Shown here: positions 5,001-7,914 of the stretch, one piece after another
How positions within the stretch are numbered: the first letter of the stretch is position 1
Layout: every line of letters begins with the position of its first letter
Made by a program: the position numbers
DNA from: Octopus sinensis
Taxonomy: Eukaryota
Assembly (NCBI RefSeq): GCF_006345805.1
Contig: NC_043006.1
Coordinates: 1-64,000, forward strand
Length of the DNA stretch: 64,000 nt
Direction: 5' to 3'

Positions 5001-7118
5001 TATCATCTATTTCAAGCATATGATAAAAGTTCATCCACTCTCACTGACATGTATTTATAATATAATATAATATACATATATATACATACATATAATTATA
5101 TATATATATATTAATATATATATATATAATATCTTATATATATATATATATCTATATATTAATAAAGGAATAAGAAATGCTGACAAAATAATTTAAGTAA
5201 TTTAGTAATTTAATTAGGTGAAAGTTCTTTTTACCGGTTGCGCATTTGTTATGCTTATCAAAGAAATTTTTTAAAGAGAGATTAGAGTTCCTTTTTGATA
5301 GATTGTTTCCTCTTATCTGGAAAAGATAAGAGGAAAAAGATCTATCAAAAAGGAACTCTAATCTCTCTTTAAAAAATATCTTTTGATAAGCATAACAAAT
5401 GCGCAACCGGTAAAAAGAACTTTCACCTAATTAAATTACTTAAATTACTTAAATTATTTTGTCAGCATTTTCTTCTTTTCCTTTTTTATATATCACAACT
5501 CGTGTTCCACATCTTTTTTCAATATATATATATATGTATGTATATATATATATATATGTATATATATACATATATACACCCACGGGTTATCAAAGCGTTG
5601 GCTCCGGTCATCTGCGAGCCCTTAACACGACTATTCAATATGTCATTGGCGACGGGTGTTATACCTGCAGACTGGAGAACAGCGATAATCTGCCCAATTT
5701 TCAAGAAAGGGAGCCGCGAAGACCCGCTTAACTACCGACCGGTTTCCCTTACATCAATAATCAGCAAGATGTTCGAAACCATCCTTAAGAAAAGTATGAT
5801 GCTCCACCTCCTAAACACAGCCTCGATCACTGATTCCCAACACGGCTTCGTGCCGAAGAGATCATGCTTGACCAACTTACTAGTAATGGAAGAATTGGTG
5901 ACGCGCGCATCCTCGATGATAGTGATGCTGTTGACATCGTTTTATTGGACTTTGCCAAAGCTTTTGACTCGGTAAACCACCGCCTACTACTTGTCAAGCT
6001 TCAAGCATATAGTTTCCATCCGGATATTGTATGATGGGTTGGTGCCTTCCTCTCAGATCGCTCCTTCCAAGTTCAAGTTAATGGTTCGCGGTCCGACGTC
6101 TCCAGTGCGAGCAGTGGCGTGCCTCAAGGTTCAGTGCTTGGGCCCTTGTTGTTCTTAGTCTTCATAAATGACTTGCCCGACGACCTCACGCAACACACCC
6201 TTCTATTTGCCGACGATATCAAACTGGTCGCTCCTCGCGGTAGTATAGAGGATCTTCGTCGATGCCTCCACCAAATTTGGAAGTGGTCTAACGATTGGAC
6301 CTGTGTCTGAACGTGTCAAAGTGCTGTCATCTGCCTGTCGGCTCTACTCCTGCAACTCAACTTGATTTCGAGCCGGGTCGTCTGCTGCTGGAGAGGACCG
6401 ATCAGGTAAAGGACCTGGGTATCTTGGTGGATTCCTCCTTTTCGCCTTCGGTCCAGTGCGTCCATGCTGCCAACAAAGCGCCCGGAATTCTGTTTTTGAT
6501 TCGACGGTCATTCGGAATGCTCACAGCAGCCATATTCCTACCACTCTATGTCACGCTGGTGAGACCCATATTGGAGTATGGGATTCAAGCCTCTTCTCCT
6601 TATCTCCTCAAAGACATACAGCATCACGAAAGAGTCCAGAGGCTGGCTACCCGCAAGGTTCATGGTCTCAAAAATTTGTCCTACGAAGAAAGGCTGAGGA
6701 CGCTCGACCTTTATTCTCTTGAAAAACGCCGCCGCCGTGGTGATCTCATTCTCGCCCACAACATCATAAGCGGGAAGTGTACCTCTCGAAAGAGCTGTTC
6801 TTCACTCCTGCTCCGGAGCGTCGGCTGCGGGGTCATTCCGAAAAGCTCTACCTGCGACGATTTCATCTCAATCGAAGGAGAGGAGCTTTCTCCGTCCGGG
6901 TTGCGGATCCGTGGAACAAGCTGCCAGACGAGATGGTGAAGATGCCGACGACCGCTTTGTTCAAAGCCTCCCTGGACCTCAAGTGGCCTGAACTCTTTAC
7001 ATGAACACACACCCTGTACTTAACTCCATGTCCCCCTACATGGCCTTGCTATTTGCTTTTGAGCCAAATTAACTAACTAACTACTAACTAACTAACTAAC
7101 TACTAACTAACATATATG

Positions 7119-7150
<32 letters not shown>

Positions 7151-7198
7151 ATATATATAATATATATATGTATATATATATATATATAATATATATAT

Positions 7199-7239
<41 letters not shown>

Positions 7240-7251
7240 TATATATATATA

Positions 7252-7288
<37 letters not shown>

Positions 7289-7830
7289 ATAATAAATATA
7301 GGGAATAAATCCAAATTTACAGGGAAAAAATCAGATTTAGGATTAAATCGATTTTATAGTAAAATATTATAAAATATTATTCGAGACAAACCACTATTTT
7401 GCAAAACAAACAAGGAAAGACATAATCAATACATAAATTTTAATAAATAGTCAATAAATAGTTAATAAAGAGTTCAGGCCACTTGAGGTCCAGGGAGGCT
7501 TTGAACAAAGCGGTCGTCGGCATCTTCACCATCTCGTCTGGCAGCTTGTTCCACGGATCCGCAACCCGGACGGAGAAAGCTCCTCTCCTTCGATTGAGAT
7601 GAAATCGTCGCAGGTAGAGCTTTTCGGAATGACCCCGCAGCCGACGCTCCGGAGCAGGAGTGAAGAACAGCTCTTTCGAGAGGTTACACTTCCCGCTTAT
7701 GATGTTGTGGGCGAGAATGAGATCACCACGGCGGCGGCGTTTTTCAAGAGAATTGACTATTTATTAAAATTTATGTATTGATTAAGTCTTTCCTTGTTTG
7801 TTTTGCAAAATAGTGGTTTTGTCTCGAATA

Positions 7831-7914
<84 letters not shown>

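What the first reader, a model, noticed from the sequence alone, without database searches (positions are those of the whole stretch)
6713..7840. Foldback element has captured an inverted copy of its neighbour's DNA in the loop
Seen: loop 7466-7753 is the reverse complement of the LINE segment 6713-6999, only ~470 bp away. It is identical by eye apart from a 1-nt indel. It has no LINE tail and no TSD, and both junctions have short AT microhomology. The other copies of this LINE (42600, 59478) are more diverged. Inference: the RT or a repair polymerase switched template onto adjacent chromosomal DNA during insertion, producing nested inverted repeats.
Basis: partly seen in the sequence, partly recalled or inferred. 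Interest (0 to 1): 0.7.

Follow-up and report, generated by a model that had tools for sequence, protein, structure and literature searches.

The report
Inverted LINE fragment copied into hairpin apex
A 287-base piece of a neighbouring LINE retrotransposon has been copied backwards into the exact tip of a small AT-rich hairpin-forming repeat about 470 bases away, which looks like an ordinary scar of error-prone DNA break repair and not like a transposon capturing DNA as it inserted.

Summary
Window 7466-7753 is the reverse complement of 6713-6999, with 0 mismatches and one 1-nt indel. This segment is the last ~95 codons of a 5'-truncated CR1-like LINE at 5577-7111. The copy lacks the LINE 3'UTR, its (TAAC)n tail and any TSD. 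The two other LINE copies in the window are ~92% identical and keep the UTR and tail.

Corrections:
- The two repeat pairs are interleaved (A..B..A'..B'), not nested.
- The left junction carries a 10-nt filler that is part of an 11-nt stutter array. Only the right junction has a plain 2-nt overlap, which is at chance level.
- The "foldback element" has no second copy in the window and no readable TSD, so its status as a mobile element is unproven.

Best reading: a break at the apex of a pre-existing hairpin-forming repeat (arms 7368-7455 / 7752-7840), beside (TA)n tracts, was repaired by snap-back or template-switch DNA synthesis on the upstream LINE DNA.

LINE insertion geometry excludes an RT jump during that LINE's own insertion.

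Rivals are a multi-switch event with no prior foldback, RNA-templated endonuclease-independent LINE patching, and assembly artefact.

No genome or reads were available. This is a known kind of mutation and of modest interest.

The parts
5577..7111 (+). 5'-truncated CR1-like (APE+RT type) LINE copy. It comprises RT and C-terminal coding sequence, a stop codon at 7002-7004, a 3'UTR and a (TAAC)n tail.
   Evidence: Pfam RVT_1 matches on 5373-5975 and 6035-6310. tblastn of P0001 residues 401-866 (of 871) covers 5577-6977 in frames 3, 2, 1, 3, which implies three frameshifts. Relatives carry Exo_endo_phos plus RVT_1 domains. TRF finds the (TAAC)n tail at 7070-7111.
6713..6999 (+). Segment A, the inferred donor: the last ~95 codons of the LINE ORF, ending 2 nt before the stop codon (7002-7004). 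It now carries a 1-nt deletion (A instead of AA) at 6781 that shifts the frame.
7112..7300 (.). Imperfect (TA)n microsatellite between the LINE tail and the foldback.
   Evidence: TRF: period 2, 99.5 copies. TA-run scan.
7368..7455 (+). Left foldback arm B (AT-rich, unique in the window).
7440..7474 (+). 11-nt stutter array of 3.2 units spanning junction J1. It consists of the last unit of arm B, a near-copy (the filler), and a third unit that runs into the first 9 bases of A'.
   Evidence: TRF: period 11, 87% matches. Such non-microsatellite 11-nt tandem duplications occur at 107 of 63978 window positions.
7456..7465 (+). 10-nt filler between arm B and the LINE-derived insert. It nearly repeats 7445-7454.
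7466..7753 (-). Segment A', an inverted copy of A lying at the apex of the foldback. On the minus strand it is an uninterrupted 95-codon reading frame and keeps the ancestral AA.
7752..7753 (.). Junction J2: a 2-nt AT overlap shared by the end of A' and the start of arm B'.
7752..7840 (+). Right foldback arm B', the reverse complement of B with 1 substitution and 1 homopolymer indel.
7837..7972 (.). (TA)n then (TACA)n microsatellite flanking the foldback on the right.

Best explanation
A small AT-rich inverted repeat already existed next to (TA)n tracts, with arms of ~88 nt at 7368-7455 and 7752-7840 and almost no loop. A double-strand break opened it at its apex, the place where hairpin or cruciform DNA is cut.

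Inferred steps:
1. Resection ran some 750 nt on the left side of the break.
2. The 3' end of the top strand first stuttered, re-copying an 11-nt unit.
3. It then snapped back onto its own upstream single strand at the TTTA ending at 6999. The overlap is 4 nt perfect, or 6 of 7 bases with the stutter unit.
4. A DNA polymerase copied the LINE sequence from 6999 back to 6713.
5. The new end was joined to the other broken end through a 2-nt AT overlap.

The result is a 287-nt inverted, DNA-templated duplicate of the neighbouring LINE's ORF end at the hairpin tip. Later the parent LINE copy lost one A at 6781.

Shown: the anatomy, the identities, the junction sequences and the apex position. Inferred: the break, the resection, the snap-back and the order of events. 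No reverse transcriptase and no transposition of a foldback element are needed.
For: 1. The insert equals the sequence 466 nt upstream in inverted orientation, with 0 mismatches in 287 nt. The other two copies in the window differ by about 8%.
2. It is not a canonical LINE insertion. It is truncated at both ends, lacks UTR, tail and TSD, and shows no residual homology beyond the breakpoints.
3. It sits exactly at the centre of symmetry of B/B'. The arms pair right up to 7455 and 7752, with only 10 nt of filler besides the insert.
4. The left junction carries an 11-nt stutter array. This feature occurs at only 0.17% of window positions, and it is followed by 4 nt shared with the donor. Random junctions reach 4 nt or more in 1.3% of trials.
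5. The arms form a strong hairpin as single-stranded DNA: -123 kcal/mol against -49.4 +/- 4.65 for shuffles, z = -15.8.
6. Foldbacks with tiny loops and unique sequence exist elsewhere in the window, with arm identities from 90% to 98.9%: 5154-5493, 28956-29329 and 44448-44748. A pre-existing hairpin is therefore plausible. Six of 12 outer edges of the six foldbacks and inverted repeats lie within 30 nt of a (TA)n run, against 7.8% of window positions.
7. The mechanism is documented. Local foldback inversions at DSBs use microhomology, with synthesis at one end and end joining at the other (abstract of PMC11724301).
8. B/B' has 1 substitution in 88 nt and A/A' has 0 in 287 nt. This fits an older foldback but is not significant.
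Against: 1. Documented local foldback insertions in yeast are mostly ~5-34 bp (PMC11724301 abstract). This one is 287 nt and its donor lies 466 nt away.
2. The 2-nt overlap at J2 is at chance level (15%). The 4-nt overlap at J1 depends on reading the junction as a third stutter unit.
3. Four of the 5 sites that distinguish A and the loop from the other copies are synonymous. Identity alone therefore does not prove that the neighbour was the template.
4. The loop copy keeps AA where the neighbour has A. This needs a later deletion in the parent copy, or an assembly error there.
5. The divergence difference between B/B' and A/A' is compatible with both pairs having the same age. If the single substitution fell at random over 375 nt, it would land in B/B' with probability 88/375 = 0.23 (my arithmetic).
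6. No reads, no second haplotype and no genome were available. Neither the junctions nor the uniqueness of the arms could be verified.
Confidence: 0.5

Rival explanations
1. One complex template-switching event (MMBIR/FoSTeS-like) made both inverted copies, and there was no pre-existing foldback. Synthesis reached about 7465, jumped to copy 6999 back to 6713 (A'), jumped again to copy 7455 back to 7368 (B'), and then rejoined the (TA)n on the right. On this reading the "foldback element" is itself a product of the event.
For: The interleaved order A..B..A'..B' is what two successive inverted copies of nearby upstream DNA would give. B' starts exactly where the first switch left the template, at 7455. 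The arm has no other copy in the window. The arms B/B' (1 substitution in 88) and A/A' (0 in 287) are statistically compatible with equal age. The third junction would lie in TATA-type sequence. Complex inverted insertions from one locus, made by microhomology-mediated template switching, are reported in the abstract of PMC11724301.
Against: It needs three junctions where the apex-insertion model needs two. Other foldbacks without any inserted loop exist in the window, so hairpins arise here independently of LINE pieces. The only substitution falls in B/B'.
Confidence: 0.2
2. Assembly or library artefact. The inverted LINE piece, the arm, or both come from chimeric or fold-back reads, or from a mis-join in the (TA)n-rich, hard-to-sequence stretch.
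For: The region is bracketed by long (TA)n tracts. Both arm-to-arm indels are single-base homopolymer differences, which is typical of read error. The 5 most identical of the 7 repeat pairs at >=95% identity in the window are all local inverted pairs, which could mark a systematic artefact class.
Against: The structure is not a simple S + reverse-complement(S) chimera, because the pairs are interleaved and two different segments are involved. B/B' differ by a true substitution. Foldbacks in the window span a continuum of arm identity: 86.6%, 90% and 92%, and 96.8% to 99.65%. That is what an ongoing natural process gives. J1 carries a repair-type stutter.
Confidence: 0.12
3. RNA-templated patching of a break (endonuclease-independent, non-classical LINE insertion). 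A transcript of a young LINE of the same subfamily, not necessarily the neighbour, was reverse-transcribed into a break at the hairpin apex.
For: The loop meets analogues of three of the four criteria used for such L1 loci: 3' truncation, no TSD and no tail (passages of PMC1920257; window). The loop is an intact 95-codon frame. The A/loop-specific sites look like subfamily differences, so a master transcript would match equally well.
Against: It gives no reason for the insert to lie 466 nt from an identical copy. With 3 family copies in 64 kb, landing within 500 nt of one is about a 5% event, and about 1.6% for the one identical copy (my arithmetic). CR1-type LINE reverse transcriptases are held to need their own 3' end for priming (recalled, not tested). 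The neighbour itself is 5'-truncated and has no promoter of its own.
Confidence: 0.08
4. An older inverted LINE fragment has been kept identical to its neighbour by gene conversion between the two inverted copies.
For: Close inverted repeats are known to homogenise (recalled: palindrome arms of sex chromosomes). There are zero substitutions in 287 nt next to a LINE that already carries three frameshifts.
Against: It does not explain how a tail-less, TSD-less fragment got to the hairpin apex in the first place. Homology stops abruptly at both ends with no decayed LINE remains.
Confidence: 0.04
5. A mobile foldback element captured the neighbour's DNA into its loop while it was inserting, through an RT or polymerase jump.
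For: Long inverted arms flank a foreign loop. Microsatellite-targeting MITEs are a described class (search listing only; the rice element Micron is recalled), which could explain the (TA)n on both sides.
Against: No second copy of the arms exists in the window. No TSD is readable. The arms have no subrepeats. Foldback elements and MITEs move as DNA and have no RT. The LINE's own reverse transcription ran away from this site.
Confidence: 0.05

Closest known systems
Local foldback (snap-back) templated inverted insertions at double-strand breaks; synthesis-dependent MMEJ / polymerase-theta-type templated insertions
   Same: It is an inverted copy of DNA lying next to the break, and the donor is retained. 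Junctions show microhomology, and one junction shows iterative stutter. One end is extended by synthesis and the other is captured by end joining (abstract of PMC11724301; titles and abstract starts of PMC5728401, PMC4912351 and PMC2943611 in the listing).
   Different: Size and distance differ: 287 nt copied from 466 nt away, against mostly ~5-34 bp adjacent to the break in the yeast study. The break here is inferred, not induced. The polymerase is unknown.
Replication template-switch mutations (four-point model) and MMBIR/FoSTeS
   Same: The event can be written as leave at 7465, enter the other strand at 6999, leave at 6713, and return at 7752-7754. It creates or extends hairpin-forming inverted repeats (PMC5453318 and PMC8794818, listing and abstract starts only; PMC8421209, listing).
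   Different: To my recollection, described short template switches are mostly tens of bases and often replace sequence instead of adding ~300 nt. MMBIR events are usually described at larger scale.
Centre breaks of palindromic AT-rich repeats and long inverted repeats
   Same: It is an AT-rich hairpin-forming repeat with the lesion exactly at the centre of symmetry. The abstract start of PMC4255720 (listing) says only that PATRRs mediate recurrent constitutional translocations. Breakage at the palindrome centre in PATRRs, yeast hairpin-opening work and palindrome centre modification in mice are recalled.
   Different: The arms here are only ~88 nt. The outcome is a local templated insertion, not a translocation or a central deletion.
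Endonuclease-independent (non-classical) LINE-1 insertions at DNA breaks
   Same: It is a LINE fragment truncated at both ends, without tail or TSD, and apparently filling a break (PMC1920257 abstract and passages).
   Different: Those insertions are RNA-templated and unlinked to a donor copy. Here an identical copy lies 466 nt away in inverted orientation, which points to DNA templating in cis.
Foldback elements and MITEs, including microsatellite-targeting MITEs
   Same: It has long terminal inverted arms, a loop of foreign sequence, and (TA)n on both sides.
   Different: No family has been demonstrated, there are no subrepeats in the arms, and no TSD is readable. See the membership test.
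Mu killer and hairpin-RNA loci
   Same: It is a partial inverted duplication of a transposon's coding region that would fold into a long perfect RNA hairpin if transcribed (PMC3440606 abstract start, listing).
   Different: No evidence exists here for transcription or small RNAs. The stem is 287 bp, against ~4 kb for Mu killer. The kingdom of the host is unknown, and the window looks like an animal genome.

Membership tests
Foldback transposable element / MITE | Long terminal inverted repeats | tested here: met
   Arms 7368-7455 / 7752-7840, with 1 substitution and 1 indel.
Foldback transposable element / MITE | Membership of a multi-copy family (other copies of the arms elsewhere) | tested here: not met
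   No other match to the arms in the 64-kb window. The genome as a whole could not be searched, so this holds only for the window.
Foldback transposable element / MITE | Target-site duplication flanking the arms | tested here: inconclusive
   The flanks are TA-rich low-complexity sequence, so any short direct repeat there is uninformative.
Foldback transposable element / MITE | Arms built of tandem subrepeats, as in classical FB elements (feature recalled) | tested here: not met
   Inside the arms, TRF finds only a 10-nt repeat of 2.1 copies at the outer edge and the 11-nt junction stutter.
Canonical target-primed LINE insertion | The 3' end of the element (3'UTR plus microsatellite tail) is present | tested here: not met
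   The loop copy stops at the equivalent of 6999. Copies 42601 and 59478 keep UTR and tail. No residual homology beyond the breakpoint.
Canonical target-primed LINE insertion | Target-site duplication | tested here: not met
   The flanks of the insert are inverted copies of each other (B/B'), not direct repeats.
LINE twin-priming 5' inversion (features recalled) | The inverted segment lies at the 5' side of the same insertion and carries LINE sequence upstream of the non-inverted part, not a duplicate of it | tested here: not met
   The inverted piece duplicates 6713-6999. It lies 355 nt beyond the tail, separated from it by (TA)n and unique DNA.
Templated inverted insertion at a break (local foldback inversion / template switch) | The insert is identical to nearby DNA in inverted orientation, and the donor is retained | tested here: met
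   0 mismatches in 287 nt, donor 466 nt away and intact.
Templated inverted insertion at a break (local foldback inversion / template switch) | Microhomology or templated stutter at the junctions | tested here: inconclusive
   J1 has an 11-nt stutter array plus 4 shared nt, which is above chance. J2 has 2 nt, which is at chance level (15%).
Templated inverted insertion at a break (local foldback inversion / template switch) | An ancestral allele without the insert exists (the event is an insertion) | not testable with these tools
   No second haplotype, population data or related genome was available.
Endonuclease-independent (non-classical) LINE insertion | 3' truncation, no tail, no TSD (criteria in PMC1920257) | tested here: met
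Endonuclease-independent (non-classical) LINE insertion | An RNA template, with the source unlinked to the insertion site | not testable with these tools
   Sequence alone cannot tell RNA from DNA templating. Closeness to an identical copy argues against this, but only on probability.
Hairpin-RNA / Mu killer-type silencing locus | Partial inverted duplication of a transposon able to form a long dsRNA | tested here: met
   An RNA fold of 6700-7850 pairs 6713-6999 with 7466-7753 as one stem with a single bulge, MFE -744.8 kcal/mol.
Hairpin-RNA / Mu killer-type silencing locus | Read-through transcription and derived small RNAs | not testable with these tools
   No expression or small-RNA data were available.

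The most novel reading that the evidence does not exclude
The repair scar has created a new LINE-directed hairpin-RNA locus. Any transcript reading through 6713-7753 folds into a 287-bp near-perfect dsRNA against the ORF end of a LINE subfamily whose frame is still intact. That would make it a natural, newly born Mu killer-like trigger for small-RNA silencing of that family. More broadly, in this genome (TA)n-associated breaks repaired by snap-back synthesis may be the main recent source of both foldbacks and such silencing triggers. The 5 most identical repeat pairs in the window are all local inverted pairs.
Probability: 0.1. Interest if true: 0.6.

Novelty: new member of a known kind. Interest (0 to 1): 0.3.

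Why it matters
If the junctions are real, this is a clean natural example of a long (287-nt) snap-back or template-switch insertion at the tip of a hairpin-forming repeat. It is much larger than the events usually scored in repair assays, and the donor, the filler stutter and both junctions are preserved. It shows how inverted repeats can grow stepwise next to fragile (TA)n tracts. It also shows how a partial inverted transposon copy, a potential dsRNA source, can arise without any transposition. For annotation, such loops should not be scored as LINE insertions or as transposon "captures". It does not point to a new kind of element or mechanism.

Tried and rejected
- **Other copies of the arms, or of the other foldbacks, in the window.** None were found, so no family could be defined.
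- **Other foldback or inverted-repeat loops matching DNA nearby.** Six pairs with spacers over 100 nt were checked (7368/7752, 47001/47530, 21989/23418, 39543/40937, 60558/61181, 2007/3419). Only the one under study has a loop copied from adjacent DNA. The 39778-40936 loop matches dispersed repeats at 72-78% identity. The 2007-3664 element is a Tc1-like transposon with a second copy at 29592-31254.
- **Residual LINE UTR or tail next to the loop copy.** None; scores equal the shuffle mean. A 7-base resemblance between the filler and the start of the (TAAC)n tail, seen by eye, is better explained as a duplicate of the arm end.
- **Shared "private" substitutions as proof that the neighbour was the donor.** Rejected as proof, because 4 of the 5 are synonymous.
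- **Twin priming.** Rejected on geometry.
- **Inversion by recombination between the two self-complementary (TA)n tracts.** It does not simplify the structure (reasoning only).
- **Shared terminal motifs among the foldbacks.** By eye, ACCGGT-containing stretches occur in 3 of them. This was not pursued and may be chance.
- **Organism.** The protein search gave at best 56% identity.
- **Not attempted.** The prokaryote-only genome collection and the phage, plasmid and E. coli collections cannot hold this locus.
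Full report
**What is there**

The window is an AT-rich (38.7% GC), transposon-laden stretch of a eukaryotic genome. It holds 52 (TA)n runs covering 3.8% of its length. It also holds LINE, Tc1-like, mariner-like and LTR-type fragments. It contains no N.

At 5577-7111 on the + strand lies a 5'-truncated LINE.
- tblastn with the best relative (P0001, 871 aa) aligns residues 401-866 to 5577-6977 in frames 3, 2, 1, 3. That implies three frameshifts, near 5906, 6290 and 6770-6781.
- Relatives carry apurinic-type endonuclease plus RVT_1 domains in a single ORF of ~900 aa. 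Seventy-two proteins had E <= 1e-5 among 2098 candidates, with a best identity of 56%. The few named ones are from trematodes, a bird and a nematode. I therefore call it CR1-like; that clade name is my judgement and not a tool result.
- The ORF stops at 7002-7004 and is followed by a short 3'UTR and a (TAAC)n tail at 7070-7111.
- An imperfect (TA)n tract follows at 7112-7300.

**The observation**

Segment A (6713-6999) and segment A' (7466-7753) are reverse complements with no mismatch and one 1-nt indel. A' lies between two AT-rich arms, B (7368-7455) and B' (7752-7840). The arms are reverse complements of each other apart from one substitution and one homopolymer indel.

As single-stranded DNA, 7360-7850 folds at -123 kcal/mol against -49.4 +/- 4.65 for 100 shuffles.

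The other two copies of this LINE family in the window are 92.0% identical (42681-42968) and 91.9% identical (59478-59667) to the loop. Both are ordinary 5'-truncated insertions that keep the 3'UTR and tail. The loop copy has neither. Local alignment of what lies beyond its two breakpoints against the corresponding LINE sequence scores no better than shuffles.

Three details need correction.
1. The two repeat pairs are interleaved (A, B, A', B'), not nested. The two hairpins exclude each other.
2. The left junction is not a plain microhomology joint. Ten bases (7456-7465) nearly repeat the preceding 11-mer. TRF reports an 11-nt array of 3.2 units at 7440-7474 that runs 9 bases into A'.
3. The right junction is a 2-nt AT overlap, which random junctions in this context reach 15% of the time.

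**Which copy is the original**

A is embedded in continuous LINE sequence on both sides, so A is the resident copy and A' is the derived one.

At the indel, A' and copy 42601 have AA while A has a single A. A' is an uninterrupted 95-codon frame, and the parent copy is frameshifted there. Either the deletion in A came after the duplication, or it is a homopolymer error in the assembly.

**How strong is "copied from the neighbour"**

All four sequences align over 190 columns. In those columns A and the loop share 5 of 5 sites at which both other copies differ from them. Four of these 5 are synonymous. That is the signature of a subfamily evolving under selection in an active lineage, not of decay after insertion.

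A young master copy, or its transcript, could therefore match the loop as well as the neighbour does. The case for local copying rests on three points:
- the 466-nt distance;
- the inverted orientation;
- the non-canonical ends of the insert.

With three family copies in 64 kb, an unlinked insertion would land within 500 nt of one about 5% of the time, and next to the single identical one about 1.6% of the time (my arithmetic). A genome-wide search, which I could not run, would settle this.

**Mechanism**

An RT jump during the LINE's own insertion is excluded by geometry. Target-primed synthesis starts at the tail and proceeds toward the 5' end, so a jump would show at the junction near 5577. 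It would not show 355 nt beyond the tail.

Twin priming is excluded for the same reason. The inverted piece also duplicates LINE sequence, whereas twin priming would continue it.

What the anatomy does fit is a templated inverted insertion at a break.
- The insert sits exactly at the centre of symmetry of B/B', where hairpin or cruciform DNA is cleaved (established for long inverted repeats and palindromic AT-rich repeats; recalled).
- After resection of the left end, the top-strand 3' tail can fold back on its own upstream single strand, prime at the TTTA ending at 6999, and copy leftwards. Synthesis ending at 6713, about 750 nt from the break, is what a resection boundary would give (inference).
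- The 11-nt stutter at the priming junction occurs at only 107 of 63978 window positions. Together with the 4 shared bases (1.3% by chance), it is the kind of iterative synthesis reported for synthesis-dependent MMEJ and polymerase-theta joining (listing and abstract starts).
- Capture of the second end through 2 nt matches the hybrid mechanism described for local foldback inversions in yeast (abstract of PMC11724301).

The difference from that work is scale. Those events are mostly ~5-34 bp.

**Was there a foldback element?**

The arms have no second copy in the window, no subrepeats and no readable TSD. Mobility is therefore unproven.

The window holds other unique-sequence foldbacks and inverted repeats:
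- 5154-5493, arms 92%;
- 28956-29329, arms 98.9%;
- 44448-44748, arms 90%;
- 47001-47241 / 47530-47770, arms 99.2%;
- 60558-60802 / 61181-61406, arms 86.6%, with a core at 97%.

Six of the 12 outer edges of the six structures lie within 30 nt of a (TA)n run, against 7.8% of window positions. The binomial probability is 1.4e-4, although the edges are not independent.

Either microsatellite-targeting MITEs (a described class; listing only) or de novo snap-back duplication at fragile (TA)n could explain this. The existence of simple foldbacks without inserts makes a pre-existing B-B' hairpin the more economical starting point, because it needs two junctions.

A single three-junction template-switch event that created both A' and B' is a live alternative. 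The one substitution in B/B' against none in A/A' does not discriminate between the two.

**Other rivals**

- RNA-templated, endonuclease-independent LINE patching shares the 3' truncation and the lack of tail and TSD (PMC1920257 abstract and passages). It gives no reason for the adjacency.
- An assembly artefact cannot be excluded without reads. The region is bracketed by (TA)n, and both indels are homopolymer differences. Against it stand the interleaved two-segment structure, the true substitution between the arms, the repair-type stutter, and the continuum of arm identities among foldbacks in the window.
- Gene conversion could keep A and A' identical, but it does not explain how the fragment arrived.

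**Consequence**

If transcribed through, 6700-7850 folds with A and A' as one 287-bp stem with a single bulge (MFE -744.8 kcal/mol). That is a potential dsRNA against a LINE subfamily whose frame is still open, analogous to Mu killer (abstract start of PMC3440606, listing). This is untested.

**Verdict**

The event is a good natural specimen of a known class of mutation: a templated inverted insertion, or template switch, at a hairpin apex. It is not a new kind of element. Interest is 0.3.

Three things stayed unchecked:
- the genome-wide uniqueness of the loop and of the arms;
- read support for the junctions;
- supplementary files of the cited papers, none of which were opened.

Noticed in passing
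window-wide; pairs 6713/7466, 47001/47530, 28956-29329, 60634/61181, 7364/7752: Seven repeat pairs in the window are at least 95% identical and at least 60 nt long. The five most identical (96.8-99.65%) are all local inverted pairs less than 1 kb apart. The only direct pair is 95.4% identical. Recent duplication here seems to be almost exclusively local and inverted, or else the arms are homogenised, or this is an assembly bias.
   Followed up: partly
5154-5493, 7368-7840, 28956-29329, 60602-61340: Unique-sequence foldbacks are flanked by (TA)n runs. Six of the 12 outer edges of the six inverted structures lie within 30 nt of a run, against 7.8% expected. This could mean microsatellite-targeting MITEs or snap-back repair at fragile (TA)n.
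   Followed up: partly
47001-47241 / 47530-47770: A 241-nt inverted pair at 99.2% identity whose arms contain weak internal repeats (about 105 nt, 71% identical). Its 288-nt spacer contains (CT)n(TA)n and a second (TA)n tract. The left arm abuts the 5'-truncated end of a different LINE on the minus strand at 45662-47008.
   Followed up: partly
5071-5576: A ~340-nt foldback with a loop of a few bases lies directly upstream of the LINE's 5' truncation point (5577). The palindromic symmetry extends into the imperfect TA-rich flanks on both sides (84% over 517 columns).
   Followed up: no
5522-5576 and 7112-7300: The LINE at 5577-7111 is bracketed by TA-rich microsatellite on both sides, as if it had inserted into a (TA)n tract. 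A TSD cannot be read in this sequence.
   Followed up: no
8131-9162: A mariner-like transposase remnant (HTH_48 and Transposase_1 domains in successive broken frames) lies just right of the finding. A second one lies on the minus strand at 35395-36273.
   Followed up: no
1993-3664 and 29592-31254: Two copies (93.5% identical) of a Tc1-like transposon with ~246-nt terminal inverted repeats and HTH_Tnp_Tc3_2 plus DDE_3 domains.
   Followed up: no
5225-5240, 44505-44520, 60785-60800: By eye, three of the foldbacks contain an ACCGGT-centred stretch in their arms. This may be chance and was not tested.
   Followed up: no
712-891 + 3933-4159, 10281-10673, 19977-20370, 21991-22378, 23398-23821, 24101-24444, 58298-58708: A dispersed ~400-nt repeat family (72-83% identity to the copy split over 712-891 and 3933-4159) occurs at least seven times in the window. 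Two copies in inverted orientation form the 21989/23418 pair at 93% identity.
   Followed up: no
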